A stretch of DNA of 64,000 nucleotides from Mytilus trossulus (GCF_036588685.1 NC_086374.1:40796001-40860000), one strand, 5' to 3'. Counted from the stretch's first letter, positions 24,550 through 64,000 are shown. The notes: generated from the letters alone by a model not told the origin. Numbers and translations are program-made.

Positions 24550-24661
24550 TTTGTGCCAGTAGTTTTCAAAATACCTAGCATCGTTTGTGCCAGTAGTTTT
24601 CAAAATACCTAGCATCGTTTGTGCCAGTAGTTTTCAAAATACATAGCATCATTTGCGCCAG
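24550..24661. repeat. 34-bp tandem repeat, about 3.3 copies
   Basis: tttgtgccagtagttttcaaaatacctagcatcg at 24550, 24584 and 24618; partial copy at 24652. Confidence 0.9.
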
Positions 24662-25490: not shown

Positions 25491-25505
25491 ACATAACCAT
25501 CTAAT

Positions 25506-30817: not shown

Positions 30818-30820
30818 AAA

Positions 30821-34125: not shown

Positions 34126-37100
34126 TCAACTGTTATAAATATTCTTTCCTGTTTCAGTCATATCTAAAACATGTGAGAACTGATCACAAACTTTGGCAAA
34201 GTGTGAGCCTTCCCAGAATACTTTACCACAAGTTCCACAACAAAAGAACGTAGTAACCTTATCAAACATAGGCTCTGGTATAGAGTCCAACTGAAGCGGA
34301 ACATTGTTATTTACAACAGTCATGGTTGACCAATTAATGCCATATTGTACATTGGGCTGTGTGATTGGTTTATCTTGGTCAGTGACTTTCCTTAACTTTA
34401 TCCAATTTTCTTTAAATACATTGCATGGTACTTGAAGATAGACATTTCCATTGCATACCTGAAAACAAAAAGTATCATGTATCACTTCATTATGATGATA
34501 ACTTCTGTTAAATCAGCCTTTCAAAATATAGCACCAATATATCCTTCACAACATGTTTTAGAATTTTTTCAATGATTGTTTGTTATAAAATTTTTATAAT
34601 TAGCTTTTTCACACCATTTCTATGTTAAGTTATTTAGCAGTGGCAGCCAAGGTTCTGAAAATTCAGAAATTATTGTGTGCATTTATTATTGTGATTTTGT
34701 CATTTTAGACTAAAATGCAATTATAATATTTGCAATATTGAGAAAAACTTGGTTTAATTTATATAAAATATTTTAAATTGTGAGTTTTAATTATTACTAT
34801 TATAACCCTTTCGCATTTTTCAAAATAATAATAAAAAAAACATTGCTATACTTTCTGAATTTACAGTAGTAAGGGACAGAAATGATAATTTAAAAAAGGG
34901 AGCACATTTCTCATTTCCTAAAGTTGATTGTTGTCAGACCTTTAAAGGTTTCAGATTTTTTTTATTGTATTTTTAGATTTTTGGAAGAGCATCTATGATA
35001 ACATGATGTTTAAAGAGTCATTAACAATAAGACCTCTAATAATCATTTAAAGTTTTGTTACACTCAAATATCTCTTTAATCTTACATACCTTGCATCTAC
35101 TAAATATGTCTTTTTCTGTAACCTTGACATTAAAATACTGTAAAACCTCTACCACTTGTTCTCTAGCTGTGGTTGTCTGGACATTATAACACATCTTATC
35201 TCCTACTATTCCTTGTACCTGAATAAAAAGATCAACCACTAGATGCACACTACATTTGATGTTGAGTCTCTTTATACTATACATTCCGAGATATTCCACA
35301 GTTTTGATTAATGAAAATAATGCAACTGATATCTGAAACATGTGTTAGGATGCAGATTTTTCTGAAATCGCAAAAGTTCATCTTGCATATTTGGTTATTT
35401 GTAATCAATTGCATCAAATGCATGCAATAATTTCTTAATTTACAGTATAAATATAAATAATGCAAGGCAGACATATATTGATATTTGTCAACACACAATA
35501 ATACTTATATCAAATGGTAATATACAAAGATGATGTTAGAAAGTCGTGTTGATAAATATTTCAGCTGAAGAAATAGCCTTTGTGATTGTCAAAAATTTTA
35601 ACATTCTTATTGCGTTTGTTATGAAAAATAGCTCAATAATACAGGCAAGTTTTGGACTATTGATTTAAACTAAAATCTTGAACCTCATTAGACTAATAAA
35701 ACTCAATACTCTAAAAGGTAGCTGCTTATATAAACATCATAAGTGTCAAAATGCAGTAGTATGTATAAAATAAATATATGTAAAATAATAGAAGACCCCG
35801 CCATCTAACTGCTAGTACTTTCCTAGTGATGTAATTTGAAATAATGGTGTTACAATAAGCAAAATATGATTTATTTACTTACCCTCATGTAAGGCAGTCC
35901 TGAAGTGAGAACTACACGTTTCTCTTTTTGACAGATCTACAAATTGAAATGTTTGCTAAATGATTATGAAGAAACAATGGTGGAATAGGTTCATAACCAG
36001 ATGCTCCGCAGGGCGTAGCTTTATACGACCGCAGAGGTTGAACCCTGAACGGTTGGGGCAAGTATAGACACAACATTCAAGCTGGATTCCGCTCTAAATT
36101 TGGATTGTGATTAAATAGTTGACACAGCATAGGTTTCTGACACAGAATGAATGTATTCAAATGAACTTAAAATTTTTGTTTTCTCTTAGAGCAATTCACT
36201 ATGCTGTTGAATATTAATCCTCTCAAAAACATGTTTGAAGAAATTTTCTTTTTATTTATGAAATTTCAAATGAGAAAAATTGAACCCAATTTTTTAATCA
36301 CATCCCCCTTTCCCTTATTCCAAAACTAATTTCAATTAAAATATTCTAATGGAGTTTGCAACAATTACTACTCATTTAAATACATCATAAAATATTAGGC
36401 CTTTTTTTTTTAATTAGTTGGTTTACGGATCCGCCGACCCGATTTTGTTTAAAAGTGAAATAAAATTAAAATTTTGATTTCGTGTTGTTTTTTATTCCGC
36501 CGACCCGATTTTTCGAGTGCTGTGAATAAAAAAATCTGAGGCGTTCCAAAACGTTTTGTCTGTGTCAATAAAGCGTTTGTAGTGAACGGCGTATTTTGAA
36601 AAGCTTCGAAATGACGCAGACGAATTCAAAAACCCAACGAGGGAGGACCATGGAGTCTGACGGCTTCATCTACTTTCAGTTGAATATTAACTTTGATGGT
36701 CAACGTACTGAGAGCACTTTTATCAAATGCAAACCTAAGACCACGTGCACCTTAAATGTGATGGTATTGTGTTCACCTGGAGAGTGAGAGATCTTGGGTT
36801 TGAACCTTGACCCGGTCAAATCAAAGACTTAAAAATTGGTATCTGCTGCTTCTTCGCCAAGCACGCTGCAATTGCAATTATTAAAGGAGTCAGAATAATG
36901 TGTTTGGGTAAGGTAACATATCTTTGGGGGAACTGTTACCTTGTGAGCTAGCACATTTAAATTCTGGCTCAGTGTGTCAGTTTAGCATTTCATTTCTCAT
37001 TATCATATTCTCATCCTAATTATGCATCTGATTAGCCACTAGACATTAAACAACAATTGACCATCCATCCATCAAATGCAAAGCATATCAAGATAAGAGC

Positions 37101-40100
37101 TAAACTATTTCTCCTCCTCAACCCCTGTAATGTCATGAATGAACAGCATTTTTTTTTTTTTTTCCTCCGACTCAAATTTTTCAGAACAGTTAAACGTGAA
37201 CAAAAAAAAAATCTAAGATTGCTATTTTATTTTTATTTTTTTTACCTCCTCCGACCCTAACCTTTGACACTAGTTGTCCGTAAACCAACTAATTAAAAAA
37301 AAAAGGCCTTAAGATGTAAAAAAACTGCTTGTTATCACTGAATGGTAAAGATTATTTAAATTTATCAGTTGGTAGTAAAAAAGTGAATATACATTGTATA
37401 TTGTATACAACAAAGATTTAAGTTGATTCTGGACAAAGAAAGATAACTCCAATTAAAAAAAATTCTTGCAGATATTTCTTGCTTACTATACTGGACAAAG
37501 AAAGATAACTCTTAATTAAAAAAAAATTTGCTATTTCACAATATTGTGAAATTAGATATTTCTTGCCATTGCACAATACTTAATATAATAATTTTAGATC
37601 CTGATTTGGACCAACTTGAAATCTGGGCCCATAATCAAAAATCTAAGTACATGTTTAGATTCAGCATATCAAAGAGGCCCAAGAATTTAATTTTTGTTAA
37701 AATCAAACTTAGTTTAATTTTGGACCCTTTGCACTTTAATTTAGACCAATTTTAAAACTGGACCAAAAATTAAGAATCTACATACACAGTTAGATTTGGC
37801 ATATCAAAGAACCCCAATTATTCAATTTTTGATGAAATCAAACAATGTTTAATTTTGGACTCGATTTGGGCCAACTTGAAAACTGGGCCAATAATTAAAA
37901 ATCTAAGTACATTTTTAGATTCAGCATATCAAAGAACCCCAAGGTTTCAATTTTTGTTAAAATCAAACTAAGTTTAATTTTGGACCCTTTGAACCTTAAT
38001 GTAGACCAATTTGAAAACGAGACCAAAAATTAAGAATCTACTTACACAGTTAGATTCGGCATATTAAAGAACCCCAATTATTCAATTTTGATGAAATCAA
38101 ACAAAGTTTAATTTTGGACCCTTTGGGTCCCTTTTTCCTTAACTGTTGGGACCAAAACTCCCAAAATTAATACCAACCTTCCTTTCATAGCCAAAAACCT
38201 TGTGTTTAAATTTCATAGATTTCTATTTACTTATACTAACGCTATGGTGCGAAAACCAAGAAAAATGCTTATTTGGGTCCCTTTTTGGCCCCTAATTCCT
38301 AAACTGTTGGGACCGAAACTCCCAAAATCAATACCAACCTTCCTTTTGTGGTCATAAACATTGTGTTTAAATTTCATTGATTTCTATTTACTTTAACTAA
38401 AGTTATTGTGCGAAAACCAAGAATAATGCTTATTTTGGCCCTTTTTTGGCCCCTAATTCCTAAACTGTTGAAACCAAAACTCCCAAAATCAATCCCAACC
38501 TTTCTTTTGTGGTCATAAACTTTGTGTCAAAATTTCATAGATTTCTATTTACTTAAACTAAAGTTATAGTGCGAAAACCAAGAAAATGCTTATTTGGGCC
38601 CTTTTTGGCCCCTTATTCCTAAAATGTTGGGACCAAAACTCCCAAAATCAATACCAGCCTTTCTTTTATGGTCATAAACCTTGTGTTAAAATTTCATAGA
38701 TTTCTATTCACTTTTACTAAAGTTAGAGTGCGAAAACTAAAAGTATTCGGACGACGACGACGAAGACGACGACGCAGATGACGACGCCAACGTGATAGCA
38801 ATATACGACGAAAATTTTTTCAAAATTTGCGGTCGTATAAAAAAGTAAATAATGGTCAATAAGCTTTAGAAGAAATAATATATGAATAAGCATCACATGG
38901 TATATAATGCTCACATCAAGCCAGATACCAAAATCATAGAAGCTCTGATTGATTTGCAGTTCCTAAAATGTAAAAGGAATTTCATAGGACAACCAAATGG
39001 TTGAACTGATGGACAGACAAGGGTTTTATCATTATTGTGATTCCAACAAGTCTCAAAAATAACTATAATGGAAAACATGTAAAATGGACAACAGATAACC
39101 TGTGCTTCTTTTAGGCCGGGTTATGGAAACAGCCAATGTATCAAGATAAGAAATCCCAAAAAGAAGTTTCCAACCTACCTCTATAGCCCTGTCATGACTG
39201 TCAGTATTATCAAGTATATGTACATCCACACCACAACTTCTTAGTTGTTTCCCAAGTCCTTGTAACATGGAATCCACCACTACTGTAAAGTCTCCTGGTG
39301 AGATTGGTGAGTCTGCATAGAGTGGTGATTGGTGGTTTGGACCTGGAGGCTGAAAACAGGTTTTTTTATTGATACATTACAACATGACCAGTGTTTCTAT
39401 ATCTTAATTTGATGATATGGCTGCTTGTATTTACTTGATAGAAAATGTTCAATATTAAATACACTTTTACAAATGGAATCCCAACTGAATAAACAATAAC
39501 TTCCATGTTTGCTTAAAAAATGTAATGATCCTACTCATATTTTAGTACTAGAATGATAAAATACATAAAATAAAAGAAGTTTATCTAAAAGGGTTTTTTT
39601 AATGCATTTTATCAAACTTTTGATGTGGATCACTGTCTCTTGTGGTTGAGACTGGACTTTACACCAACACGACCACTCCATTATGTGATAGACTTTGTCT
39701 TATGTGATAGACTTTGTCTTATCTGCAATGACAATTTTATAGAGACAGAACTACATTCTTTTAGTATCATGAAAAAGTTTTATTTTTTAAATATTTCTAT
39801 TTCATTATGGAATATTTCTTTTAGTTTAAAAAAGATGAAAGTGTCTCAAATGTCTTAAAGGCAGGGATCTTTTATGGTTTTAAAGATTTTTATATTGTAT
39901 ATAATGATGTATATTGGATCGTGACACTACAATAAACTATTTACTTACTTACTTTTACTTACTCTATTTAGGTGTGTTGATAATTTCAACATACAAAGAA
40001 TGAAATATTAAGTTTTATTTATAACTAAAATAGTAGACAGCAAATTAATTAAAAGTACTGACCAACTGTTTAGGAAGCCTTGGTTTTATTTTCTGACCCT

Positions 40101-43100
40101 TTGCCTTGGCCTTTTTCTTATCTCCTCGACTCATTTTCATCCATCTCATGGAAGTCAGTGGTTCCAAATCTATCTTTAGACGTTCTTCTTTTGCTATTTT
40201 CACAAGTTTGTCGTAGACCTTTAGGAGAATGTAGGCATCTAATGCTGTAATGATATAACAATACAATTTCTTAGTGCTCATGACAAAATGACAAAAACTA
40301 TTTCTGATCTTTTCAAAATGTTTTTTTAATTTATTACATCTATTCAGTATTTCAAAAGGTTAGATTATGAAACTGGTCTCATTATCATCAGAATTTTTAT
40401 GATTAATTTCGGGCTATTTCAAAATTAATTTTAGGAATTAGTAGACAGTATTTAAATCAAATGGGTAGTGATTCTTTTAGTAAGTATTAAAGTACTATTA
40501 TATAGAGAATATGTATTTGAAATTAGTATTATTCAATAAGATTAGCCCTAAAGGCATGTATATCGTTTTAATCGACATAATGTAAATATAATTTATGGTA
40601 ACACAAAATAAAGAATTGAAATATTACCTGCATATATGATCTGAGGTTGTCTAAGTGGTCTTCTCTCCCAGTCTGACATCTGTTCAGATTTATTTAAGGC
40701 TTTACCAAAACACTGACGAACAAGTTCACTTAGACCTCTTTCTTCTACTTTTTGGAACTTGAAGTTTATACCACTGTCATTATCATCTTCTTTGTCATCG
40801 TCTGATGCATCTTCTGTATCTGGCATAAAGTTTACCACTTTATCTAAAACCTTTAAAAGTAAAAAACATGATTTATTCTTTATGATGACAATTATTTTAT
40901 CAAGAAAATTTTCATGATGGTATATTATTTTTCTCATTTTCTATAACTGTATACTTGTGATACTGATTAAGCAGGCTTATTGTTTAAAGTTTTCATTTAT
41001 TGCAGGGATTGAAATACCCAGAATTCTTGGGTTCAATGTCTACACCAAAGACTGGTTTAGGCTGGTTTGCCAGAAGTTGGGGTTTAATTCATAATCCAAA
41101 GACTAATTGGCTGAGGGTCAGAACAATTTCATGTAGTATACTGGAAGGCAAGTCACCAACACATACAGAATAGTATTCTGACCGTCAGCTGACCATGTTA
41201 GTTTGTGAGCCAGCTAAACATGCCAGTATACATCAAATGAAAGTGTCCTGACCATGCATGTTAGATTACATTAAGTAGCCATGAATCAATAAGCCTCTTC
41301 CATGTTTAGTACATATAAGTCACTGATATATATTGTTTATACAAAATCATGTTAATCACTTTCTATTCTATTTTTCTTTTTTTTTATACTTGCCCACCAT
41401 GTCCTATTAAACTTTCAAGGGATATTGTCAGATTTTAATCCAAAAATATTAGGTATAAAGAAATTTAGAATCTGACTTAAAATTTGATGCTTTTCTGGCA
41501 AAATTTTTTTTTTAAGCAAAAGATTTGAATGTTGCAATTTGTGTTTGATTCTTTCAATGGTCAATTATACTGCTGGTGAAATATACAGTAAGTCTCATGG
41601 AGACACGTGAGATATCATACAACAATATCCAAGTTAAAACAGTTTTTCTCAATCCATAAAAGTTGATACCCACATAAATAAACAAATCCATAATATTTGT
41701 GATTGGCTTTGTAGCATGTGATCTGAAGATGTTGCTACTCATATTTTTGATGAACCTGTTTGTCAATCAAATCTTTTAACATAAACAAACTCACCTTCTG
41801 TGCCAGTTTCTCTAAATCAACTACTCTCTCCATCTTAGCTAGGGTTCTCTCCATAAATGGGAATGTCTTGGTAAACATTTTAAAATCTGAATCTAATCCA
41901 TAACCTTCAAAAAAGAGGTAATTAACTGAACCCACTGATCTGTTGATAAATATAACTTAAGTTTACAATGTTAGTATCTCCCCCACCTACCTAGTTAACA
42001 TTCATATTCATGTAAACTTAAACAAGAATGCTTCCTCAGTACACGAATGCCCCACTCACACTATCATTTTCTATGTTCAGTGGACCGTGAAATTGGGGTA
42101 AAATCTCTAATTTGGCATTAAAATTAGAAAGATCATATCATAGGGAACATGTGTAACAAGTTTGAAGTCGATTGGACTTCAACTTCATTAAAAACTTTAA
42201 CCTGAAGCGGGACAGACGGGACAGACTATCGTAGGTGGGGCATAAAAACCTCACTAAGAAAGGTTTAAGACCTCATATAGGTAGTTGCATTCAGAAGATA
42301 AAATAATACTACAATTGGACAAAAATGGCCAATATTTTTTTCTGTAACTCTACAAAACATTCGGAATTCCAAATGGTGATATATCCTGAATAACTAACAT
42401 GATAAAGATCAATTCTATGGAGTATGGTAGTTTACAGGGAAAAATCAAAGAGGGATAGTTTTCACAAAATTATACAGCAGATTGACCAAAAACAAACTCT
42501 TTTACAATGTCTCTCAGTTGCTGTGCAATTAATTTCCATGTAGAATAGCCATACCTACATAATATCAGTAAACTGTAATATACCTAATTTGACAATATCT
42601 TGATTACAGAAGATAGATATCACCATTAGCTGCCAATCATCTTCTGTCAGAATTCTCATTAAAGTCTTGACATCAATCAGGTATGCATGGTCATAGGTTG
42701 CTAACTGTATCAAAGCTACCCTAAAATACAAAGGAATGTATAAAGATGATTTTAAGGTTAAACATTCAACTATAAAATGTTTTAACTGGATGTAAAATTT
42801 CTTCAAATAAGTTATCTATAACTGAGGTATGAAGCATCCAAGTCTTCTACCCTCTGTAATATAATCCGGTATACCAATAGTTTACATCTCTACTGCCCAC
42901 AGGCACGACTAAAACAGGGAACTCTTTCATAATGCATGTTTATATTGACAATCTTGACTTTCAATTATTTATAGTGTAATATGATTGGTAAAGAATTAAT
43001 TTGCATGTACTTAGCACTATACAAATTTCAACTTACTTTTGTACTTGTGAACCAAAACTTGGTTTCCATTCTGCATCAATACCAATCATAGTTCCTGGCT

Positions 43101-46100
43101 AAAGAAAAGTCATGATTAATAACATATCTGCAGATCTTATATATATTATCTATCAAATAAAATTGATTGTAATAAATACTGAAACATGTATGACTTAAAA
43201 GCATTTTTCGGGTCATATTTTTTGTGAAGTGTCTTGCATTTCTAAAACAAGATAAACATTATGAACTAATGATTCCCCTGCTATATACATATCTGATAAA
43301 TAATAAGTTGATCAGTGATAGATATGAAATTCAATGGCATGGTATATTATGCTCACACAAAGCTTGGTAATTATGTTTAAGGATCTATATATTTAATCAG
43401 TGGAAGATGATAAATGTTAATTCTTTTCAAAATACATTGTACTAGATAACATTCTCAAATAAAATTTTCAGCTAATTTCAGGAAGCTCAGATTTGTAGTT
43501 CCTGAGAAAAATACTAAGATGGGATGTTTAGGGAGTCTCATGGGGGGTTCTGATCCCTAATCCCGCTTACTTTTTTTTCAGATTCCCTTATCCCACTTAC
43601 AATATGTACACAAGCAATTCTCATTTTTTTTGTAGTTTCACATGTCATGCTTACAAAAAATTGGCAATCCTGTGTCATGCCTAGACCTCAATGAGACCTA
43701 CTGTATAGAGGTAAACCAGTTTGATCCCCTCTTTCTAGGAGGGGTAATAATCTAGTTCAAAATTAAATGCAGTTATTTATATTTTTTCTTTTTAATATAT
43801 AGTAAAAATAAATCATCTCACATGTAAATTATGAAAAAGGATGTTTAATTTAAATCTTAATTTTAAGCTAACACATTGACATTTACAGAAGTTGTGATCA
43901 TCAAAGAAATAGTACTTTAACCTGTATGTCTCAACATGATGCCATTTTACTTATCTTACAAATTATTTAAAGAATTGGATTAAATACCTTTTCTAATTGG
44001 ATTATATACCTTCTTCATCTTTCTAAAATTGTTCATTAACAAATTTATAAATTATCAAGAAACTAAAGTTTTAACTCCCTTGAGCAAAGTTGACCTTAGA
44101 TGGATTTGGCTATTATTCTAAGGTCTTATTTGTCACAAAGCCCTTCAATTTAAAAAAAAAATTGTACATCTTTGGCTGTTGCATATTTCACTTGAATGTT
44201 CCTGATCAAGAAAAATGCTTTGGATGCATGAAATGTTGTGTTGCTTAATTTATTTTCAATAAGTTCATGAAGTTATAAATGTTTTTTGTCATACAAGGTC
44301 AGTTAATTGCACTAAGACAAACAGGATGGAAAAAATTGAACCTTCTTTTCAATAGATTTTTTTCAAAAACCAAATCAGAATGTGACATGATTTGAAACTT
44401 TGGACTGGTTCCTAAGTGTACAAACCTTTGTAAGAGTAGACAGACAAGCCTGGTACTTTTCTTTGGTATCTATAACAGTAATATGATCATCTGATAGGTT
44501 TAAAGTATAATAATGAGCAGACATTTCTGTTTCAGAATAACAGTCATCATCCCAATTTTCTCCTTCTGCATTTTGCTCTTGTTTATCTTCTCCTCTGAAA
44601 TACCAAGAACAGCATTTGACTGAAATCATGAACTAAAATGATGTTATAAGAATAATGAAACTGCTGTCTGAGAAAATGTAAAAGTTTTACAGAGTTGGGG
44701 AAAACAAAACTACCCTAAAACTGCATGCAGCTTATACTAACAGTGATCAGAAAGAAGCTATATTTATAACTGATAATGCTGTTTTTTACAACTGCTTCTA
44801 CTATGCTTAAATGTGCAAAAAATACTTGTTTTAAAAATTCCAATAAACCAGTCCTTAAAACATTTTGGCAACTGGCCTTCTTCAATTTCTTTATTTTTCT
44901 TTTTAACTACATGGTAGACATTTTATTTTCACTATCATTAAGATGTTAAAGATGTTTTCCATAACATTAACAAAGAACTAAATCTATAACAAACTTACTC
45001 ATCCATTTCCCTTCTTTTAACAGCAACCACTTCTGGAATACATTCATCAGACAACTGGAAATTTCTAGCCCATTTAACAGCTTCCGTAAGTTCATTATAA
45101 CACATTAATTGTTCTACTAACTGTTCCTTCAAATAGTCATTATCACTAACTGCATTCTGGAAAACAAAACCAGGCATTTATAAATCACTTTCATATTTGT
45201 GCACTTTCCTATAAATTCCCTATGCGACAATGCCTATGTTATCAAGTCATAGTCATAAACGATTGGTTGATGACTAAATTTTGTTCAGAATTCAATCAAA
45301 CTTCTGTTGTGGATCAATGGAAGTTTTTTAAATAATTGAAACAAAATCATACATAAACTGTACCCAGAGAAAATAGATGTCAAACTCAAAAATAAAACAA
45401 ATTGATAGCAATGTAAAAAGCAAATACATGTAAAAGTTTAAAGTGAAAAAGTTTATTTTTGATCACTCAATACATAATTCTTTTTTTAACATAACTATTA
45501 CCTCTACTAGTTCTTCCCAACTTCCTGTACCCATCTTCCCCTACAATAAATACAAACAAATTCTATGATCAATTATTACAGAGTAACTTAAATCCAGTAT
45601 TATCTGGATTTTTATTTTATTACAGGTTAGATATTGTAAGGATATAAATATCTATAATACTAAAATTACGAGGTCCAACTTGTCAGCCATCATCACATAA
45701 AAACGATGAATCAAAGATGACAATACCAATACTGAAAAAGGCACACGCATAGTAATGTATTTTAGTTCAGTCACGGACCCGCGATATCACGGGTGTGTTC
45801 TAGTATAATATATAATTGCCAAACCATTCTAAATATTTAATGATATTATTTATTCCTGTTTTGACCCTTTTTTATATATGTCAATGTAAATTTTTTATCA
45901 ACATAATGCATATGGTTACTGTGGTAAAATTCATGAATGTCATAAGTTATTATGTTGAATGCCTATTTATCTATAAAAAAACAATCTCAATTACATATAA
46001 TACATTTCTACCAGTTTCTCTTTAACATTCATTTACCCTGGTACAATATACTGTTATCATGGTTATTTTTTTCAGCCTACATGAAAGTATCATCCTATTA

Positions 46101-49100
46101 CCTCTATATATCTCCTGTACAAAAGATACCTACATGAAAGGATCATCCTATTACCTCTATATATCTCCTGTACAAAAGATACCTACATGAAAGCATCATC
46201 CTATTACCTCTATATATCTCCTGTACAAAAGATACCTACATGAAAGGATCATCCTATTACCTCTATATATCTCCTGTACAAAAGATACCTACATGAAAGT
46301 ATCATCCTATTACCTCTATATATCTCCTGTACAAAAGTCCTATTACCTCTATATATCTCCTGTACAAAAGATACCTACATGAAAGCATCATCCTATTACC
46401 TCTATATATCTCCTGTACAAAAGATACCTTCATGAAAGGATCATCCTATTACCTCTATATATCTCCTGTACAAAAGATACCTACATGAAAGCATCATCCT
46501 ATTACCTCTATATATCTCCTGTACAAAAGATACCTACATGAAAGGATCATCCTATTACCTCTATATATCTCCTGTACAAAAGATACCTACATGAAAGCAT
46601 CATCCTATTACCTCTATATATCTCCTGTACAAAAGATACCTACATGAAAGCATCATCCTATTACCTCTATATATCTCCTGTACAAAAGATACCTACATGA
46701 AAGGATCATCCTATTACCTCTATATATCTCCTGTACAAAAGATACCTACATGAAAGGATCATCCTATTACCTCTATATATCTCCTGTACAAAAGATACCT
46801 ACATGAAAGCATCATCCTATTACCTCTATATATCTCCTGTACAAAAGATACCTTCATGAAAGCATCATCCTATTACCTCTATATATCTCCTGTACAAAAG
46901 ATACCTACATGAAAGGATCATCCTATTACCTCTATATATCTCCTGTACAAAAGATACCTACATGAAAGGATCATCCTATTACCTCTATATATCTCCTGTA
47001 CAAAAGATACCTACATGAAAGGATCATCCTATTACCTCTATATATCTCCTGTACAAAAGATACCTACATGAAAGGATCATCCTATTACCTCTATATATCT
47101 CCTGTACAAAAGATACCTACATGAAAGGATCATCCTATTACCTCTATATATCTCCTGTACAAAAGATACCTACATGAAAGCATCATCCTATTACCTCTAT
47201 ATATCTCCTGTACAAAAGATACCTACATGAAAGCATCATCCTATTACCTCTATATATCTCCTGTACAAAAGATACCTACATGAAAGCATCATCCTATTAC
47301 CTCTATATATCTCCTGTACAAAAGATACCTACATGAAAGGATCATCCTATTACCTCTATATATCTCCTGTACAAAAGATACCTACATGAAAGGATCATCC
47401 TATTACCTCTATATATCTCCTGTACAAAAGATACCTACATGAAAGCATCATCCTATTACCTCTATATATCTCCTGTACAAAAGATACCTACATGAAAGGA
47501 TCATCCTATTACCTCTATATATCTCCTGTACAAAAGATACCTACATGAAAGGATCATCCTATTACCTCTATATATCTCCTGTACAAAAGATACCTACATG
47601 AAAGCATCATCCTATTACCTCTATATATCTCCTGTACAAAAGATACCTACATGAAAGGATCATCCTTAATACCTCTATATATCTCCTGTACAAAAGATAC
47701 CTACATGAAAGGATCATCCTATTACCTCTATATATCTCCTGTACAAAAGATACCTACATGAAAGCATCATCCTATTACCTCTATATATCTCCTGTACAAA
47801 AGATACCTACATGAAAGCATCATCCTATTACCTCTATATATCTCCTGTACAAAAGATACCTACATGAAAGGATCATCCTATTACCTCTATATATCTCCTG
47901 TACAAAAGATACCTACATGAAAGCATCATCCTATTACCTCTATATATCTCCTGTACAAAAGATACCTACATGAAAGCATCATCCTATTACCTCTATATAT
48001 CTCCTGTACAAAAGATACCTACATGAAAGCATCATCCTATTACCTCTATATATCTCCTGTACAAAAGATACCTTCATGAAAGCATCATCCTATTACCTCT
48101 ATATATCTCCTGTACAAAAGATACCTACATGAAAGCATCATCCTATTACCTCTATATATCTCCTGTACAAAAGATACCTTCATGAAAGCATCATCCTATT
48201 ACCTCTATATATCTCCTGTACAAAAGATACCTACATGAAAGCATCATCCTATTACCTCTATATATCTCCTGTACAAAAGATACCTACATGAAAGCATCAT
48301 CCTATTACCTCTATATATCTCCTGTACAAAAGATACCTACATGAAAGCATCATCCTATTACCTCTATATATCTCCTGTACAAAAGATACCTACATGAAAG
48401 CATCATCCTATTACCTCTATATATCTCCTGTACAAAAGATACCTACATGAAAGGATCATCCTATTACCTCTATATATCTCCTGTACAAAAGATACCTACA
48501 TGAAAGCATCCTCCTATTACCTCTATATATCTCCTGTACAAAAGATACCTACATGAAAGCATCATCCTATTACCTCTATATATCTCCTGTACAAAAGATA
48601 CCTTCATGAAAGTATCATCCTATTACCTCTATATATCTCCTGTACAAAAGATACCTACATGAAAGCATCATCCTATTACCATGATTACCTCTATATATCT
48701 CCTGTACAAAAGATACCTACATGAAAGCATCATCCTATTACCTCTATATATCTCCTGTACAAAAGATACCTACATGAAAGCATCATCCTATTACCTCTAT
48801 ATATCTCCTGTACAAAAGATACCTACATGAAAGGATCATCCTATTACCTCTATATATCTCCTGTACAAAAGATACCTACATGAAAGCATCATCCTATTAC
48901 CTCTATATATCTCCTGTACAAAAGATACCTACATGAAAGGATCATCCTATTACCTCTATATATCTCCTGTACAAAAGATACCTACATGAAAGGATCATCC
49001 TATTACCTCTATATATCTCCTGTACAAAAGATACCTACATGAAAGCATCATCATATTACCTCTATATATCTCCTGTACAAAAGATACCTACATGAAAGCA

Positions 49101-52100
49101 TCATCATATTACCTCTATATATCTCCTGTACAAAAGATACCTACATGAAAGCATCATCATATTACCTCTATATATCTCCTGTACAAAAGATACCTACATG
49201 AAAGCATCATCCTATTACCTCTATATATCTCCTGTACAAAAGATACCTACATGAAAGGATCATCCTATTACCTCTATATATCTCCTGTACAAAAGATACC
49301 TTCATGAAAGGATCATCCTATTACCTCTATATATCTCCTGTACAAAAGATACCTACATGAAAGGATCATCCTATTACCTCTATATATCTCCTGTACAAAA
49401 GATACCTACATGAAAGGATCATCCTATTACCTCTATATATCTCCTGTACAAAAGATACCTCAATGTATTACCTCTATATATCTCCTGTACAAAAGATACC
49501 TCAATGTATTACCTCTATATATCTCCTGTACAAAAGATACCTAATTGCTCCTACTCCTCTGGCTTTACTTATGTTTGGACATAATTCTGAAAATAAGAAC
49601 ATAACCAAATATAGTGCAGTCAGGATCCTACTTCGTCAAAATTATCTCCACCTTACGCCAGTTCATTTTCACAACCGTAGAAATGGAAGCCATTGTAGGG
49701 ATGACGCGCTACCAATTGTGCTCTTGGAAACCGATAAATTTATCCACATTGCACCATTACGATCCTTATATGTCAGTTGTATTTTAAAAGACAAATATAT
49801 CAACTATCTAATGAGCATCAGTTAATAATCTTGTCTGCATTGATTTAACTTAAAACTATTGTCTGATCAGTTGTCAGATGGAGTTTTCGAAAATTCATAA
49901 ACATTTAAAAAAAATCTAATTAAATATTTCGTGGAAGGGCAGACTAGATTTTTTTAATGTATGAAGACTATAAACCCTAGTTATCACACACAAAAAATTA
50001 GAATTTTTCGAAGATACGCATTTTCATCATCCAACTTGAAAGACTGTCGTCAAGTACTTTCAGTCAAAAAAATGCCATTCGAACACACCTGCTCTGTTTT
50101 TGTGACTCATTAGATGGGTATTTCGCTTGACCCATATATTTCATCTTTTAGTGCTGTGATTTTTTTGTGTTATAAAGTCAACCTGTTGCTTTAATATATA
50201 AAAATGATAGAATCTGAAGCGAGACGATGTATGAAATATTCTTACTTTGTACGATATCAAGACAAAATACTCAACTCAAACACGCCCTAACATAAAAAGG
50301 TGCACTCAGTTTTCTCTTTTCGATACAATTGTTACCCATTTTTTGGAATTTTTTCTTTAGTCACATAATGGAAGGGCAGACACGAAAATTACTGAACTAA
50401 TAGATTGACATGTTTTCCGTCCGTGTTATTTTTTCAAAAAAATTGGAGGTTATGCATTTTCTTCATCCAACTTGAAAGATACCCATGTCGTCGACTTGAT
50501 ATCTAATTGTTCTGCTTAAGTATGTACTAGATTAATTGAAAACTTATGCAAATGGTGTTTTTAAAATAAAACACCTAGTAATTGAGAAGAAAATTGCAAT
50601 TTTGTTTGTTTCTATTAACTGTTAAAAATTTTGTCACTATAGTAAACAATACAATAAACATTTATCGCCTTCTCTAACCATGTGCTTTGATTCTTTTGTT
50701 CTATTTCAACCTGGTTTCCGACTGAGTAGTTAGAATCAAAGACAATATAATATGTCTGGATGTATTAATGTATTGGGAAATAGTAGTGTGTGTCTAATTT
50801 TCACTCTACCTATTTTACTGCAAAATAACCCTACTCACACACTGAATTGTTGATAGTAATGCATTGTAAAATGCTATGTTATGTGAATAATAAATTCTTT
50901 AGTTCTAAGATAGTCTGTTGTACAGTGTATATTTTCATTTTTCAAATACACATCATGTGATAACATCAGAACTCTATGCTGTGTTGGGATAAGTACAACA
51001 TATTTTGCATGAAAACATATATCTATGGATGTCATCTTACAGAAGGTTTTCATCATGGTGAGGAGGACAAACTAGAATTGTGTGGTTGACTTTTTTTAGG
51101 TAGAAATATAATTTAAAAATCGAAAAATGTCACATGATACAACTTTCAATATTAACATTGACACGACTATAATTCAACTCTCAAATAATAGTGAATGATT
51201 AACCACCCCCTCACTGTAAACAAACCCCATAAACAACTTACATGTATATACAATATTGATAATTAAATTTTGTAAGATGAAAAATCTATTTGTAAAATTG
51301 CAATCAACAATCCTCCATACCAATTGGCTTATAACACAGAAAAAAACTTCTGAAAAGTTAACTACCTTTATTGACTTGTGAACAGCAGATATAATATATA
51401 AGTTACAAACTAATCCACATTTTCAATATATATATACACTATGTATTGATTTCATTTTTATAAAAAATCCTTTTCTATATCATACATTCACTGTTATCAA
51501 AGGGAACATTATAGTAAACACACTCTGTATTTTCAGTTAAATAATTCACTTCTTTAAATAGATCTATCCATACCTTTGTTCTTTTTTATTCATTGTGAAA
51601 TGTGTAGATAGGTTTGATACAAGTGAGTTAAATACATGAAATAAAATAATTAAATTTTGCAATTTTGGTCTATAAATGTGATGCCATGTGATTATAACAT
51701 TACCTTGTGGGATATCATACAACTTCATCAGTCTTGCTGCAAGTTTACTCAGTGTCTTTTTATTTAACTTCTCCCTCTTAGGATTGGTTACACCACTTTT
51801 ACTAAAATAAAATATGAATTTTACAGAATACTTTGCTTTGAAAAAATACCACAAAATCATACTATCATAGGTGGTAAAATGTTTATATTTCTGTAACAAC
51901 TCGATAACAGATTGTTTAATACACCAAATAAGACGTCTGTGATCATAGTCATACAATTGTTTTTGTCTTTAAAACTGAAATTAACATATCAACAAAAAAT
52001 CACTATTTCAGAAATTGTTGAACATTAAAGTGGAAGAAGAACAAATATTCTTATAGTAACGTACAGTACCTTATTACATCATCTATAACAACATCTCTAT

Positions 52101-54162
52101 CCACCAGACTATCCAACATTTGTACAACCATTTGTTGTAGTTTGAGATTACCAGTTGCATATTGTTCTAAAACATTTACTTTGTCCTGAAGAACTAATGG
52201 TAAGGCTATCTAAGGAAAAAAAAAACATGCTTTACATAACAACAAAGAATACAATGTATATTTCTTGAAAGTACAAAGTTTAATGTCACTTTTTTGCATG
52301 ATCTACATTTGTACATTTTAATTTATTACCAAATGAAATACTATATAGATCTACAGATAGACATATCAATGGTAATACAATGATGCACACACAAAAAATA
52401 AATGACCCCATCCTTATAACTGTCTAATGTAAAATAATGTCAAGATACATGTACTTACCTCATCTATAGTAAAATGATCTTGAAGTCTCAATTTACCAGC
52501 AACAACAGCAGCCTGAAAAATAAAGGCATCTTCCTGGTCATCTAAACAAAAGTTAATAAAAGTATCAGATTTTATAATATCAAAGAAAACCTTCAGAGAT
52601 TTTTGCCACAATGTAACAGTTTATGGCCATGGGCTATCCAGAACTTAGACATGTTAAAGAACATATAATTTAACAGGAACAGTCAGCAATCTGTTAATTA
52701 ATATGCTTTGCATTGTTATTACAAAATAACTAATTTCTTAGTTTTTGTTTTGGAAGTAAAAAGTGATTGATGATGACTGGACTATGTATCATGAATACAA
52801 AAATGGTGAAAAGACAGGGGACACATCAGCGAAATCCAATGATCATTTTTATATATTATTATATGTAATCAAATAATAAAATTCATTTGGGTTTATAGTG
52901 TATTGTGGATTCAATTATTTTCACGGGTACCAATTTTCGTGGATTAAGGAAAACTTACATTTGTTAATATTTATTTCTTGGTTTTGCCAAAGTTTGCCCA
53001 CAGGCCAATAGAAAATTTGTCATTTGTTGAATTTTGTGGTTCAACTTTACCCACGAAATCCACAAAAATTGGTATCCAATGAATAATAATGAATCCACGG
53101 TATTCTCTTTCCATTAATCTATTTATAAATTACCTCATTATATTTCTTTTTCTCCAAGAAAGCTTTTATCTGTGGCAACATGTATTCATTTCCATGCTGA
53201 TTCAATTGAAATGCTGTGACTGCCATAGGAAAAAGTGATGTATTATATCGTGTACAAGCATCTAATGCTCTCAATTTGATGTCCTCTGTTAATAATTCTT
53301 TCTGATTTACAATATGGGTATTTTTTAACCATGCTAAAAACTCCTTCATGAAATAGTAGCACAGTGATGATGTTTTACCTGAGTTATGCTCACGACAGTT
53401 TTCTATAAAATAAATAACAAGTGCATATGGATGACTTGATCTTGAATAATATTCTCTAATTAAAGTTGAAGCCTGGGATTTGTCTGTTGGATTTTGATCA
53501 AACCATTTATTCTCTACATATTCCAATAATCTCTGCATTTCTGATCGAGATGGTTCATAGACAGACTTCATCTCAAATGTTTTTTTTAACCACTTTTCAG
53601 AAACCTTCGGATTATTTTGTTTAACTTCACTCAAATCAAATTCAGTGTTACTTCCAATAACCTTTTTGACACTACTTTGCTTCATTTTCTTAGGATTTTT
53701 GCTACCTACATTTCCTCTAGATAAAACAGGAAATTCTTCTGTATGAGTTTTAGATGGTTTATAATTGTCTGGTGATTCTGGTGTCCTTTTAGCAGATGTA
53801 TAAGTCATTGCATTTGATGCTACAGTGTGCTGTAAATTATTATCTACACTAACACTTGAACTTTTAAATTGACTGGAATGAGGCTGCACATGTCTCAAAT
53901 TAGAAGATGGAAGTCCATAACTCTGTACTAAGGGATGTGGACGCATTTGGTTTTGAAATGGCACTGTGTTATCACAATTCTTCTGAGTAAATGGATGTGG
54001 TTGTATCTCATCATGTAATTCTGATTTATCTGCCCTTGATGTTTTACCTACAGTTGACAGAGTAAGCTGTGGTTCTGAAGAACAGGCTCCTTTATTAACC
54101 TGGACATCTGCAGGTGAGGATAAAATAAACCCTCCATCTTCATCACTTGATTCATCATACAT
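34126..54162 (-). CDS. EXD3: Exonuclease mut-7 homolog (DEDDy 3'-5' exonuclease plus Mut7-C PIN/zinc-ribbon domain), about 1053 aa
   Basis: 17 in-phase coding exons: 54162-53134, 52512-52459, 52209-52070, 51801-51704, 49586-49513, 45540-45502, 45156-44999, 44594-44426, 43098-43037, 42720-42584, 41904-41795, 40850-40628, 40244-40063, 39349-39179, 35936-35883, 35218-35090, 34458-34126 (3162 nt). Motifs: IGIDAEWKP, ALIQLAT, KLGYGLDSD, GLSELV..CFGKALNKSEQMSDWERRPLRQPQIIYAALDA, VDSMLQGLGKQLRSCGVD, RCKVCN, CGTCGKVFWEGSH. Probable 5' UTR exons at 54968-54909 and one ending at 56362. Confidence 0.95.
36398..37308. mobile_element. PIF/Harbinger-type MITE nested in the HINE
   Basis: TIR of about 30 bp ggcc(t)n-aattagttggtttacgga; TTA target duplication at 36395-36397 and 37309-37311. 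Confidence 0.8.
36755..37075 (+). mobile_element. Degraded tRNA-derived SINE (Meta/MESC-like core) nested in the MITE
   Basis: B-box-like gggtttgaacc, core aaagacttaaaaattggtatctgctgcttcttcgccaagcac, (CCAT)n tail. Confidence 0.55.
45651..45803 (+). mobile_element. 153-bp non-autonomous Helitron
   Basis: 5'-TC start, 3' hairpin acccgcgatatcacgggt (45777-45794), CTAG end, inserted between A and T. Confidence 0.7.
46076..49542. repeat. 53-bp minisatellite, about 65 copies, derived from an EXD3 exon 3' end plus splice donor
   Basis: Unit tacctacatgaaag(c/g/t)atcatcctattacctctatatatctcctgtacaaaaga. Two 41-bp variants lie next to the exon. Confidence 0.97.
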
Positions 54163-56566
54163 TTTAGTAGCTGTCAAAAAAAAAGGAAGATGTACTGTGA
54201 CTTTAAAAGTTAGAATGATTGCATGGGCAGAAAAATACTATAGAACAAAAAATGATCTACAAATATACTTACTAGACTAGTGGACTCCTACAACTACTAT
54301 ACAATGTACATGCTACATGTATATGGAAGTCAATCCACTAGAAAATATTTGGTTAATGCCATGGTGGGTAATCTTGAATCAGATTGTTTTCAAAAGAATT
54401 AATAGCAGCAGAGAATGGCACCTTGCTCCATACTCAGACAGAATGCATAGGGTATTTTTATTTTTTTGAATGATGGAGGTCTGACTGAAAGGGTGGTGGT
54501 CATGAATTTGAGGGATTTTATAGAGTAAGGGAATTTTAATATTTAAAAGATGATGGTCTGCATGGGGGCCATCAAGCACAAACACCTTAGGCATGTTATG
54601 GAAAACACTGAAACACTGAAGCCAATCAACATATTTGGATATTCTTCCAATTCCCAATCCCATAAGTTTTCTAACATTTTGACTTGAGTTCTCATATTTT
54701 TTCATTTAATTGGATTACAATTTTGTCAATGTTGACAATCATTGCCAGGCCATTTGAGACAGTTAGGACAAAGATCACTTATCATACTTATGCATATGTT
54801 AACAATCATATGAATGGTACACATGGTACATGTAATAGTCATGATAGTATTATTAAGCTGAATTAAAAAAAAAATTGAACAAAAAAAACAAGAAACAAGT
54901 TCCCTTACCTTCAGACAATGACTGTCTTGTTGTAATAATTGTTAGCTTATTGCTCTCTGTATCATCAGCTGAAAACATAGATTTATAAATACTTTAACAA
55001 TGAAGTGATTCTATTCAAGAACATTAAAACAATGCTATTACTCAGTAAAACACAAAAAAATTAAACTACATTTCCTAGATATAAAGTCTATCTCACTATC
55101 TGCACACTGATGCAACTACAGACTAGAGTCAAAATACATAATTTACAAAATCTTCTCAAACCTCATCATTTATTTATTTATAAAAATGGTGCTTCTCTAA
55201 ATAAGTAGTCCTTAAAATATTCTAAACAACCAATGAAATTATCGTTACATGTATATCAAAATAGTCATTTAATGTACATTGTACTAAACTTTCTTACCAA
55301 ATTGCTGTTACAACATCAATTCTCTTCAACTATTGTTTTCTAGATTCATTGCACATGTTGCAATGCTTAATAAACATGGTATAATTATAATTGGGAAGCA
55401 AATGAAACTTTTCCACAGAGTCAATTCCTGCTGTCCAATCTGTTTAAACTTTTGTCTGTTCTTTAAATTACATAGATTTCTATTTACTTAAACTAAAGTT
55501 ATTGTATGGAAACAAAATGACTAAATGTCTTTGAACGCCGCTGAAGCCACCAGCAGTCGTAGAATAAAAACTGCAAAATTTTCTTAAATTTACCAATTCT
55601 GAGGCAGCAACCTATCAACAGTTTATCTGATGTGTCTGAACATTTCAGGGCAGATAGATTTTCACCTGATGAAAATTTTTATAACATGTCAGATTTGCTC
55701 TAAATGCTTTAGTTTTAGAGCTACATGTATAAGCAATGATAAGCCAAAAGCTGCATTATACCCCTGTGTTCTATTTTTAATAGCCATGCATCTATCTAAG
55801 TTGATGGATGGGGTCATGGGATACATTTTATTAACTAAGGATAAAATGTATACTTCAATACATTATTTTATATTAATGTAGCTTTGTGGAACAAGCAAAG
55901 CTTTTTTTTATTTTCTGTCTTTTCTCGAATGATTTAAGTTCATACAGTATGCCAGTACATATAACTGACCCAGGTTCTCTGCTGAATTGAGGTTTATGAA
56001 ATGTGCTGATCTTCTTTACACCATTTCTATCTGTTTGATGTGATTGAACGTTCAGTCTAACAATGATATGCTCTTTTTTAATTTCTTCATTAATTCAACT
56101 AGAATTTGAATAAAAAAATGGGTGCAAACGTGAAGGGGGCAATCAGAAATATGGGGAGAACATGTGAGCATCAAAAGTGTCCTAGGTGTGAACAGACCAG
56201 GTACTAAAACAAAAACGTTATGATTCTGGTTCAGTAATGAGTTGGTGAAGAATTTTCAGTTGTTGTTCACCCTAAGACTAAGTATATGAATCATCATTCA
56301 AACACAGAAGGTGTTAGCTTACAGTTTAAAAACACAAATAAAGACTGAAGATTACATGTACCTATTTTTTCTAAATCCAAGAAACGGCAAAATTTCTCTT
56401 GAGTTTTGGCGTCAAACTGAACGCTTTTGACGTTAGTTTTCTTGTGAAAGATACTTGAGACAAAATCTTTAACAATAACCCATATAATTTGTACAAATAT
56501 TATCATTTCATGTACAAATAACAAGTTCTACCCTCTCTTGCGATTTTTTTTGGTTTGAAGTTATAA

Positions 56567-60400: not shown

Positions 60401-60691
60401 ATACATCTGATTGAGAAAGTTGTGAACCAACTGAGACAGGTGCCCCGTTACATAATATAGGAATAATAATAAAAAATAAAATACATTAGGGTTCTAACAA
60501 AACATAGTGTGATTTTATGTTTATCTGCGTACCTCATTAGTCCATAATATTTGTTGTATTTTACTCTTAAGAACTAACAAGACAATCAATTATACTACTT
60601 TCAATAGTGTTCTGAAGGTCGTTCAGATAAAATATAAAGTAATGTTAATTGGGAAATAATTCAGTATATCGGAAGCACTTTGACAGACTAT

Positions 60692-62388
60692 ATGACAAGA
60701 AACCTTATCACTAACTCTACAATGATTCCACAGGATAATCTGAACAATACTGAAGTAAATGATGATTTATTGAATGCAGTTTTCCTTTTTCCGAACAGCA
60801 CAAATCAGACGTGTCTACAACTGACACCACCTCATTCTTCTGTACAATATTTGGTTACATCATTGCTTGGTACCAGTATTTTTGTTTGTACAACTGTTCT
60901 CGTTTCCAGTGTTGTACTCAACAAAGATAGAAAGTTTCTAAATTGGAGATTCATTGACCGAGTCAGTTTGTATACAGCAGCATGTAACTTGTTTTTCTAT
61001 TTAACACAAGCTCCGTTACTACTGTTGCCCCCGCCTTCTAATGGTACAGAGGGTCTAGATGGAGCCGGGGATTCCATGATATTTGTTTCCACATTTACAA
61101 TACTGTTCATGGAGTTTGCGTTTGCCGAGATATTAATGAGTATATTCATTGCCATCTGCGTTTTATATTTGATATTCCAGAATTATTCCATTAAATTTGG
61201 TAGATACGATTGGAAACTACATTTACCTGTCCTTGGTATACCATTACTCATATTGGCTGTCTGTGAAACTATCAGCTTAACTAAAGAAAAAGTTAGCGAG
61301 TAAGTACCAAGTTAAAAATAAATTATTACATGTTGTGTTATCACTTACTTACATATAATATGACAGTTTTAACGGTGCCCAACGATCGGATGACCCTTCA
61401 ACCGAATACGACCGTTTTACCTTGTAAGAACTCACAGGGTCAAAATAGGAATGTTGATTTACCTATTTAGATTTTTATATTTAGAAGAAAAAAAATCTTT
61501 ATAATGCATCAAAAACTTTTTTTTAACATAGTTTAAAAATGAGAATTTTATCCAGCGCTCTACATTATTGATCAAGACATTTTTTTGTAAAAATTTTAAT
61601 GAATTTTAAAAGGATATTTTTTTGTAATCTATAAAACAGTGCATCACTTCAGTTTCAACCAAAGCTTTTGCAATTAATCCCCTTTTTAAATGGTTGTTGT
61701 TTTCATAAATATTCTAAATCAAAACTGTCTTATAAAAATGCATTTTGAACAATCTATAATAAGTAACTTTTTCTTATTGGAAGCAGTGTGAAATACATTA
61801 AAGGAAAATGGTCGTACCTCTTTATGATTTTTTTAAAGAAGAACATAACCTATAATATAAATAATGTTTACTATAATGCGTAGTAACAGATCCTGACTTT
61901 ATAAGGGTTGTAGACGTCATCAACCTTTTGCCTCTACATCACTTTTCGATAATCAGATTACGTCGTATATAATATCGAGTTATCTAGTGATATATATATA
62001 GTTAAGCTTTTAATTAAAACTTGGTTTATTTTCTTTCAGCTGCGTCGTTCATGAAATATTGGAATTTACAGTATACTTCTTTGTCATATGGATCGCATTC
62101 TTTTTTATCACAACGATATACATAGTAACATGGTTCCATGTGGCCAGAACGAGCAGCAGTATCAGATCGACGTTACATGGTCAATCCACCGTCAAGTCTA
62201 ATCGCCTTGCTCTCAAGTTGTCCATGTATGTTTTTGAATTTATAATTCAATTTGGTGGGAACGCAACTGTAGGAATTTGGCGATTATTTGCCGATCCTCC
62301 ACCAATAATCGATAACATCACACTGATCTTTGTAGTGTCAGGGGGTATGCTGAACGGGATGATATATCTCTTGATAAAGAAAATGTAA
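60692..62388 (+). CDS. Divergent seven-transmembrane (GPCR-like) receptor, 318 aa
   Basis: Exons 60692-61299 and 62040-62388 join in phase (GA|C). N-terminal NxS/T sequons, seven hydrophobic segments, KFGRYDWKL before TM4, GGMLNGMIY in TM7 (resembles cAMP-receptor-like GPCRs). Confidence 0.8.
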
Positions 62389-63051: not shown

Positions 63052-64000
63052 TAATAATAATCTCAAACAAGTTGCTGACATTAAACAATAATAATCTCAA
63101 ACCAGTAACTGACATTAAACAATAATAATCTCAAACTAGTAACTGACATCAAACAATAATAATCTCAAACCAGTAACTGACATCAAACAATAATAATCTC
63201 AAACAAGTTACTGACATCAAACAATAATAAACTCGAACAAGTAACTGACATCAAACAATAATAAACTCGAACAAGTAACTGACATCAAACAATAATAAAC
63301 TCGAACAAGTAACTGACATCAAACATTAATAATATCACACCGGTAACTGACATCAAACAATAATAATCTCGAACAAGTATAACTGATATCAAACAATAAT
63401 AATCTCACACCGGTAACTGACATCAAACAATAATAATCTCACACCGGTAACTGACATCAAACAATAATAATCACAAACCAGTAACTGACATCAAACAATA
63501 ATAATCTCAAACAAGTAACTGACATCAAACAATAATAAACTCGAACAAGTAACTGACATCAAACAATAATAAACTCGAACAAGTAACTGACATCAAACAT
63601 TAATAATATCACACCGGTAACTGACATCAAACAATAATAATCTCGAACAAGTATAACTGATATCAAACAATAATAATCTCACACCGGTAACTGACATCAA
63701 ACAATAATAATCTCACACCGGTAACTGACATCAAACAATAATAATCACAAACCAGTAACTGACATCAAACAATAATAAACTCGAACAAGTAACTGACATC
63801 AAACATTAATAATCTCACACCGGTAACTGACATCAAACAATAATAAACTCGAACAAGTAACTGACATCAAACAATAATAATCTCGAACAAGAATAACTGA
63901 TATCAAACAATAATAATCTAACACCGGTAACTGACACCAAACAAAAATAATCTCACACCGGTAACTGACATCAAACAATAATAATCTCACACCGGTAACT
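63052..64000. repeat. 34-bp tandem repeat, at least 28 copies, running off the window end
   Basis: aataataatctcacaccggtaactgacatcaaac and variants. Confidence 0.95.

What the first reader, a model, noticed from the sequence alone, without database searches (positions are those of the whole stretch)
46076..49586. EXD3 intron filled with about 65 tandem copies of its own exon end and 5' splice site
Seen: on the gene strand each unit reads ...catgtAG|GTATCTTTTGTACAGGAGATATATAGAG|GTAATAggatgatgcttt. That is the last 28 nt of exon 49586-49513 (YLLYRRYIE) plus 25 nt of the original intron start, apparently seeded by TAGG microhomology. The ancestral intron continues after the distal unit (46076). 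About 65 GAG|GTAATA donors of equal strength therefore compete, and only the most proximal keeps the frame (read-through gives GTA ATA CAT TGA). Most units also contain a TAG|GT junction resembling a recursive splice site or a 28-nt poison microexon. Inference: array length could tune productive vs NMD-targeted splicing of a small-RNA pathway nuclease.
Basis: partly seen in the sequence, partly recalled or inferred. Interest (0 to 1): 0.7.

Follow-up and report, generated by a model that had tools for sequence, protein, structure and literature searches.

The report
Repeated splice donor in mussel EXD3
In a mussel gene for an RNA-trimming enzyme (EXD3), the end of one exon and its splice signal are copied 65 more times into the next intron, while other mussels carry no extra copy or a differently cut repeat; the cell likely uses mainly the first signal, so this is likely a tolerated repeat of a kind already known from human and lancelet genes.

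Summary
The array is real: 65 tandem units (3,411 bp, 86% of intron 7) repeat the end of EXD3/mut-7 exon 7 and its donor. The window matches the Mytilus trossulus protein letter for letter when the first donor is used. Every later donor puts a stop in frame. Public DNA runs show three states at this junction: a high-copy 53-bp array, an array-free allele, and a different 68-bp unit. The window's two proximal 41-bp units carry the Leu codon of other Mytilus alleles rather than the Ile codon of the exon beside them. So the junction was duplicated or re-cut more than once. This is a junction-spanning minisatellite like human F7, CBS and ABCA7 and lancelet 'mirages'. There the first donor dominates, with small leaks in some genes. 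RNA contigs show in-frame mRNA beside array sequence but cannot tell which donor was used. The TAG|GT sites are middling; a CAG acceptor (13-nt poison micro-exon) scores higher. No evidence of regulation; an array-free allele argues against a conserved device. The scan has noted at least 14 similar arrays elsewhere in this genome (unchecked notes). New member of a known kind.

The parts
34126..56506 (-). EXD3 / mut-7 homolog, 19 coding exons
   Evidence: Spliced GT-AG chain reproduces XP_063422909 (P0005, M. trossulus, 1124 aa) letter for letter; Pfam DNA_pol_A_exo1 and Mut7-C in exon pieces
49513..49586 (-). Exon 7 (74 nt, ends in phase 0; ...GAIRYLLYRRYIE; Ile-type allele)
49507..49512 (-). 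Authentic (first) donor GAG|GTAATA of intron 7
   Evidence: the only donor that gives the database protein
49501..49503 (-). In-frame TGA retained whenever any later donor is used
   Evidence: read-through
49431..49512 (-). Two 41-bp units: 6 nt intron start plus the last 35 nt of a Leu-type exon allele
   Evidence: encode LRYLLYRRYIE as in the 7 other Mytilus proteins that cover this stretch; Leu-type exon letters seen in run X11 (table 5c)
46102..49430 (-). 63 units of the 53-bp family (25 nt intron start + 28 nt exon end), each with a pseudo-donor; most with TAG|GT, all with a CAG cryptic acceptor 13 nt before the donor
   Evidence: 53-bp units 98.8% identical to consensus
46076..46101 (-). 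Last pseudo-donor and copy of the original intron start, ending in TAGG (microhomology with the exon)
   Evidence: array-free allele in X10 runs from the exon straight through this sequence into the unique intron
45541..46075 (-). Unique remainder of intron 7 (561 bp in all without the array); holds a dispersed-repeat remnant at about 45642-45818
45502..45540 (-). Exon 8 (39 nt, phase 0-0, skippable in frame)
   Evidence: joined to exon-7-end sequence and to exon 9 in 4 of 4 RNA runs

Best explanation
A polymorphic minisatellite repeats the end of EXD3 exon 7 and its splice donor 65 more times in intron 7; it likely began as a short slippage-type duplication across the junction, and the cell likely splices mainly at the first donor, so that the copies leave with the intron and are likely close to neutral. 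Steps: (1) shown: unit anatomy, single locus, three allele states in public DNA runs (none extra, 53-bp array, 68-bp unit). (2) Inferred: birth at short microhomologies (TAGG for the 53-bp unit on the Ile-type exon, AT for the 68-bp unit on the Leu-type exon), then expansion by unequal exchange or slippage. The 41-bp units show that array and exon alleles have recombined, or that they predate the Leu-to-Ile change. (3) Inferred from F7 and lancelet precedents: exon definition and 5'-to-3' donor choice favour the first donor. (4) Shown by translation: any later donor, and each of the eight micro-exon combinations tried, gives a premature stop. Inferred: rare leaks are removed by NMD.
For: Database protein needs donor 1. 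Array-free allele: 305-nt X10 contig from exon into unique intron. Different 68-bp unit in X11, depth 68.5 against 20-27 for flanks. High-copy array in X1: unit contig depth 1975 against 22 per flank allele. X16 and X18 (one sample, exon differs from the window at one position) hold in-frame exon 8-10 mRNA together with array contigs; X18's 83-nt contig spans a unit-to-unit junction. No exon-8-skipping joint in 4 of 4 RNA runs (contigs drop rare forms). Common unit types are interspersed at random (27 runs, 29.5 expected, p=0.30). Precedents: PMC1557585 (only the most upstream donor used in F7; one or two extra in CBS and 6-16), PMC3087553 and PMC3902484 (mirages do not disturb splicing).
Against: First-donor use on an array allele is not shown directly. 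Exon and common units share 31 nt before the donor, and the RNA contigs of X16, X17 and X18 have only 30 letters on that side. Array sequence is present in RNA of 3 of 4 runs while the unique intron has depth 0; 45-65 copies of nascent background can explain this, but partial retention can too. All six substitution alleles in the units (five among the 60 53-bp units; one in the 54-bp unit) lie in the 25 intron-derived positions and none in the 28 exon-derived ones (post hoc p about 0.011; about 0.05 if the two alleles also seen in other animals' single-copy introns are set aside). This may hint at constraint. In ABCA7, array length does track expression (PMC5954066).
Confidence: 0.74

Rival explanations
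1. Leaky, length-dependent burden (ABCA7/CBS type): donor 1 dominates, but a measurable share of transcripts uses donor 2-3, includes a 13-nt or 28-nt poison micro-exon, or skips the 39-nt exon 8, and long alleles lower EXD3 output. A side effect, not an adaptation.
For: CBS and 6-16 use extra proximal donors (PMC1557585 introduction). ABCA7 shows one-unit retention with NMD and length-correlated downstream exon skipping (PMC5954066 passages). The CAG acceptor in each unit scores above 9 of 18 true EXD3 acceptors and at the 96th percentile of 733 intronic AGs, with a yUnAy-like motif upstream. Array contigs in RNA.
Against: No exon-8 skip joint in 4 of 4 RNA runs. In ABCA7 the retention isoform did not change with length. 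The same CAG lies in exon 7 itself, and no contig with a shortened exon was looked for or seen. The matrix rests on 18 sites.
Confidence: 0.18
2. Evolved control device: competing donors, recursive TAG|GT sites or poison micro-exons tune productive against NMD-bound EXD3 mRNA in the small-RNA pathway.
For: All distal donors are poison. Exon-derived part invariant. The junction has been amplified in more than one form.
Against: Array-free allele exists. Units are 98.8% identical, i.e. young. TAG acceptor and GTATCT donor are weak to middling. Adjacent donor and TAG are only 25 nt apart. The scan's notes list the same build in many unrelated genes of this genome (unchecked).
Confidence: 0.05
3. 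Assembly artefact (a few real copies inflated to 65).
For: X1 may be the assembly's own sample; depth suggests about 89 copies over both alleles, not 66, so the exact number is uncertain.
Against: 12 unit variants in irregular order. Unit depth about 90 times the flank allele in a short-read-type contig set. Tandem junction in an animal with a different exon allele (X18).
Confidence: 0.02

Closest known systems
Human F7 intron 7 37-bp VNTR (PMC1557585; abstract, introduction, discussion and found passages of the results read)
   Same: First unit spans the exon-intron border; identical pseudo-donors follow; copy number varies.
   Different: F7 has 5-9 copies with 4 nt of exon; here 65 extra copies with 28-35 nt of exon, and three unit lengths among alleles. 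First-donor use is proven for F7, inferred here.
Human CBS intron 13 31-bp VNTR, 6-16, LMNB2 and PDGF minisatellites (as summarised in the PMC1557585 introduction; CBS unit c.1444_1467+7 in PMC2630376 passages; primary papers not read)
   Same: Unit made mostly of exon end plus a few intron bases (CBS: 24+7); 10-25 copies.
   Different: Extra proximal donors are known to be used in CBS and 6-16; untested here.
Human ABCA7 intron 18 25-bp VNTR (PMC5954066; abstract and passages)
   Same: Array starts at the donor; one-unit retention gives a premature stop; a downstream in-frame skippable exon exists in both.
   Different: ABCA7 length tracks expression and exon 19 skipping; no such data here, and no exon-8 skip in 4 RNA contig sets.
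Lancelet 'mirages' (Adh3, globins BflGb6/BflGb9, TnC, PGBD5; PMC3087553 and PMC3902484, passages)
   Same: Tandem copies of an exon-intron boundary in a highly polymorphic marine invertebrate; length varies between haplotypes; normal mRNA.
   Different: Here different alleles of one junction carry different units (41, 53, 68 bp); the passages read describe only copy-number differences between haplotypes.
Recursive splice sites / ratchet points (search listing and abstract starts only)
   Same: AG|GT junction inside an intron.
   Different: Here the AG|GT is a by-product of the duplication joint, with a short pyrimidine tract and a weak GTATCT donor, in a 4-kb intron; no lariat or intermediate evidence.

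Membership tests
Junction-spanning minisatellite (mirage / F7-type VNTR) | Tandem unit includes an exon-intron boundary of the host gene | tested here: met
Junction-spanning minisatellite (mirage / F7-type VNTR) | Locus-specific, born in place | tested here: met
   65 of 65 genome matches at this locus; array-free allele supplies both halves of the unit
Junction-spanning minisatellite (mirage / F7-type VNTR) | Copy number varies between haplotypes | tested here: met
   X10 no extra copy, X11 about 3 of another unit, X1 about 89 by depth; X2 nothing laid (3 of 4 runs informative)
Junction-spanning minisatellite (mirage / F7-type VNTR) | Normal mRNA made from the authentic site | tested here: inconclusive
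   in-frame mRNA present in 4 of 4 RNA runs, but contigs of array-holding runs have only 30 letters on the exon-7 side; database protein uses donor 1
Recursive splice site | Strong acceptor directly followed by a strong donor | tested here: not met
   TAG acceptor -1.9 (type D) or 1.1 (type B); donor GTATCT 1.2 against 3.0 for GTAATA; 18-site matrix
Recursive splice site | Lariat or splicing intermediate at the site | not testable with these tools
   only contigs were served, no raw RNA reads
Regulated poison exon | Inclusion gives a premature stop upstream of later junctions | tested here: met
   8 of 8 micro-exon combinations stop early; 11 introns follow
Regulated poison exon | Conserved across related species | tested here: not met
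   array-free allele and a different unit in other runs
Regulated poison exon | Inclusion seen and raised by NMD block | not testable with these tools
   no such data served
EXD3 / MUT-7 exoribonuclease (host gene) | 3'-5' exonuclease domain plus Mut7-C | tested here: met
   PF01612 and PF01927; source names 'exonuclease mut-7 homolog'

The most novel reading that the evidence does not exclude
The EXD3 exon-7 donor is a recurrent birthplace of junction duplications in Mytilus: 41-, 53- and 68-bp units with different breakpoints arose on different exon alleles, and alleles with 1, about 4 and 66 or more donors segregate. Long alleles leak into poison isoforms and lower a germline small-RNA nuclease in proportion to length, giving a natural allelic series for how a spliceosome picks among dozens of identical donors. 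(Separate origins alone, without an expression effect: about 0.5.)
Probability: 0.12. Interest if true: 0.55.

Novelty: new member of a known kind. Interest (0 to 1): 0.28.

Why it matters
As one locus it is a large but ordinary example of a known oddity. Two points give it some value. First, several unit types at one donor suggest that exon-intron junctions in mussels are duplicated or re-cut repeatedly, which bears on how mirages arise; PMC3087553 calls the mechanism unclear. Second, alleles with 1, a few and 66+ identical donors in related animals make a ready test of first-donor choice outside mammals, and of whether long arrays cost expression as at human ABCA7.

Tried and rejected
Dispersed satellite inserted by chance: rejected, single locus and unit identical to the host exon end. 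Coding use of the array: rejected, stops in the three gene-strand frames of the unit and in 8 of 8 micro-exon combinations. One search had an indexing error and its unit table was discarded; the frame table used exon 9 start 45155 instead of 45156 and was redone. Telling donor 1 from pseudo-donors by RNA contigs: not possible (30 letters on the short side). Run X2 laid nothing: no evidence either way. Unique-intron depth 0 in RNA runs is absence of cover and is not used as proof. JGI metagenome scan for the junction: 0 matches. Idea that only donor arrays are tolerated: dropped, because the scan's notes list 6 acceptor arrays among 8 shown (unchecked). A genome-wide enrichment test on 2 Mb of fetched DNA was considered and not run: no annotation is on hand and too few such arrays were expected. 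RNA fold of three units gave one long hairpin of -42.7 kcal/mol without a shuffle control; not used. No paper on Mytilus junction minisatellites came up in one search (Mytilus + minisatellite + intron + splice: 3 papers hold the terms, 2 listed, neither on the topic by title); the library lacks most subscription journals. No supplements were read; those of PMC3087553 (mirage alignments) may show unit variants between haplotypes.

Full report
Observation. The minus strand between 49512 and 46102 is a tandem array (TRF period 53, score 5904). Splitting at the donor gives 66 donors and 65 units in 12 variants: 60 of 53 bp, two of 41, one each of 33, 54 and 62; 3,411 bp. 64 of 65 units end in exactly the last 28 nt of the exon at 49586-49513, and the 53-bp units are 98.8% identical to their consensus. 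A 29-nt core has 65 matches in the 1.3-Gb genome, all here, control 0.

Host gene. The large exon found two clusters of Mytilus 'exonuclease mut-7 homolog' proteins. A chain of 19 GT-AG exons from 56506 to 34126 reproduces M. trossulus XP_063422909 letter for letter, with intron 7 from 49512 to 45541. The intron is 3,972 bp with the array and 561 bp without. That MUT-7 enzymes act in germline small-RNA production comes from the abstract of PMC11347159; it was not tested for mussels.

Reading-frame effects. Any donor after the first keeps GTA ATA CAT TGA. Eight combinations of 28-nt and 13-nt micro-exons all stop early. I scored sites with a matrix from the gene's own 18 introns, a small set. 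The repeated donor scores 3.0 (above 7 of 18 true donors). The TAG acceptor scores -1.9 in type D units (above 1 of 18 true acceptors) and 1.1 in type B. The GTATCT donor behind it scores 1.2 (above 3 of 18). The CAG 13 nt before each donor scores 1.8 (above 9 of 18; 96th percentile of 733 intronic AGs). So a 13-nt poison micro-exon is a better candidate leak than the recursive site proposed.

Other animals, DNA. Four DNA contig sets were laid on 45830-46153, which holds the last unit; three were informative and X2 laid nothing. X1 has a flank identical to the window at depth 22.2, a second allele at 21.5, and a unit contig at 1975, about 89 copies by simple division. The tool warns that depth is no copy number and that X1 may be the assembly's own sample. 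X10 has one 305-nt contig that runs from the exon straight into the unique intron: an array-free allele. Its exon is the Ile type, as in the window, so the TAGG overlap between exon and intron exists in single-copy state, and its intron start equals the window's minor unit type E. X11 has an 88-nt contig that goes back from the intron's 10th base to a point 58 nt before the donor, with 28 exon letters between (table 5c): a 68-bp unit, depth 68.5 against 20-27 for flanks, about three extra copies. Those letters carry the Leu codon (GCA TTG AGG).

The 41-bp units. Of 17 proteins fetched, 11 cover this stretch; 10 read GALRYLL and only the M. trossulus protein reads GAIRYLL. The window's two proximal units encode LRYLL and match X11's Leu-type exon letters without a change. 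Deriving them from the 53-bp unit needs a 12-nt deletion plus two substitutions. The window's haplotype is therefore most simply an Ile-type exon followed by two units copied from a Leu-type exon and 63 units of the 53-bp family. Three unit lengths at one donor mean separate duplications, or one older duplication trimmed in different ways, plus exchange between alleles or a later change of the exon; I cannot tell these apart.

RNA. Four RNA contig sets were laid on 44400-46153. All four join exon-7-end sequence to exon 8, exon 8 to 9 and 9 to 10 at GT-AG ends, one contig each; none shows a joint that skips exon 8. In X16 and X18 (one sample) a further contig continues from the shared 30 nt into the true exon, with one base different from the window, so this is another animal. 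X16 has a unit contig at depth 52.5 (mRNA 50.5), X18 an 83-nt contig across a unit-to-unit junction at 3.0 (mRNA 14.2), X17 excess depth over the unit (149.7 in the last bin, mRNA 61.3); X23 has none. Exon and common units share 31 nt before the donor and the junction contigs have 30 letters on that side, so they cannot show which donor was used. Unit depth near 0.2 to 1 times mRNA depth fits nascent RNA from tens of copies and is far below the ~30-fold expected if all donors were used evenly; a partial leak is not excluded. Of 226 pieces only 32 and of 87 loose ends only 24 were shown.

Signs of selection. Common unit types are mixed at random (27 runs, 29.5 expected). All six substitution alleles fall in the 25 intron-derived positions (post hoc p about 0.011, or 0.05 without the two alleles also seen in other animals' introns). 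Exchange between proximal units and the coding exon could keep that part clean without any function of the array; this is inference.

Known systems. PMC1557585 (abstract, introduction, discussion, found passages) describes the same build in F7, CBS, 6-16, LMNB2 and PDGF, shows by minigenes that only the most upstream F7 donor is used, and notes one or two extra donors used in CBS and 6-16. PMC5954066 (passages) reports for ABCA7 a one-unit retention isoform that did not track length, and expression and exon 19 skipping that did. PMC3087553 and PMC3902484 (passages) describe lancelet 'mirages' that do not disturb splicing. I took the term and these two papers from the scan's notes. Those notes list 8 donor arrays and 6 acceptor arrays, plus a gene with both, among 16 shown in this genome; I did not check those loci. 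No note lies near this one.

Verdict. Real, polymorphic, young, and of a known kind; most likely tolerated because the first donor wins (0.74), possibly leaky (0.18), unlikely an evolved switch (0.05) or an artefact (0.02). The one feature beyond the usual is that different alleles carry differently cut units at the same donor. Interest 0.28.

Noticed in passing
window 49431-49512 and run X11: Two-base Leu/Ile codon difference in exon 7 (TTG against ATT); the window's exon is Ile type but its first two units are Leu type. Both types occur in X11.
   Followed up: partly
window 45502-45540: Exon 8 ends in the same TAGAG|GTAATAG as the array donors and shares an 8-mer with the exon-7 end; chance or trace of an old duplication, untested. 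It is 39 nt and skippable in frame.
   Followed up: no
window 45642-45818: Both ends of a high-copy dispersed element joined directly; other genome copies have roughly 350-650 bp between the halves: an internally deleted copy.
   Followed up: partly
window 63053-64000: 34-bp tandem array (about 28 copies, higher-order 274-bp period) running off the window end, downstream of an ORF at 62014-62388.
   Followed up: no
window 30816-31196, 24549-24666, 37603-38737: Other tandem arrays (89 bp x 4.3; 34 bp x 3.5; 125-161 bp units in a likely mobile element inside EXD3 intron 16); none checked for exon edges except that the last lies inside an intron.
   Followed up: no
window 25497-26192 (+), 60638-61303 and 62014-62388 (+): ORFs without a Pfam match at E<=0.01: a 231-aa frame ending in SCCVIL (CaaX-like, recalled), and two hydrophobic frames that look like pieces of a multi-pass membrane protein.
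   Followed up: partly
P0002 and P0014: Two EXD3 models (1127 and 1153 aa) on what appears to be one 1.67-Mb M. coruscus contig: isoforms or a local duplicate, not examined.
   Followed up: no
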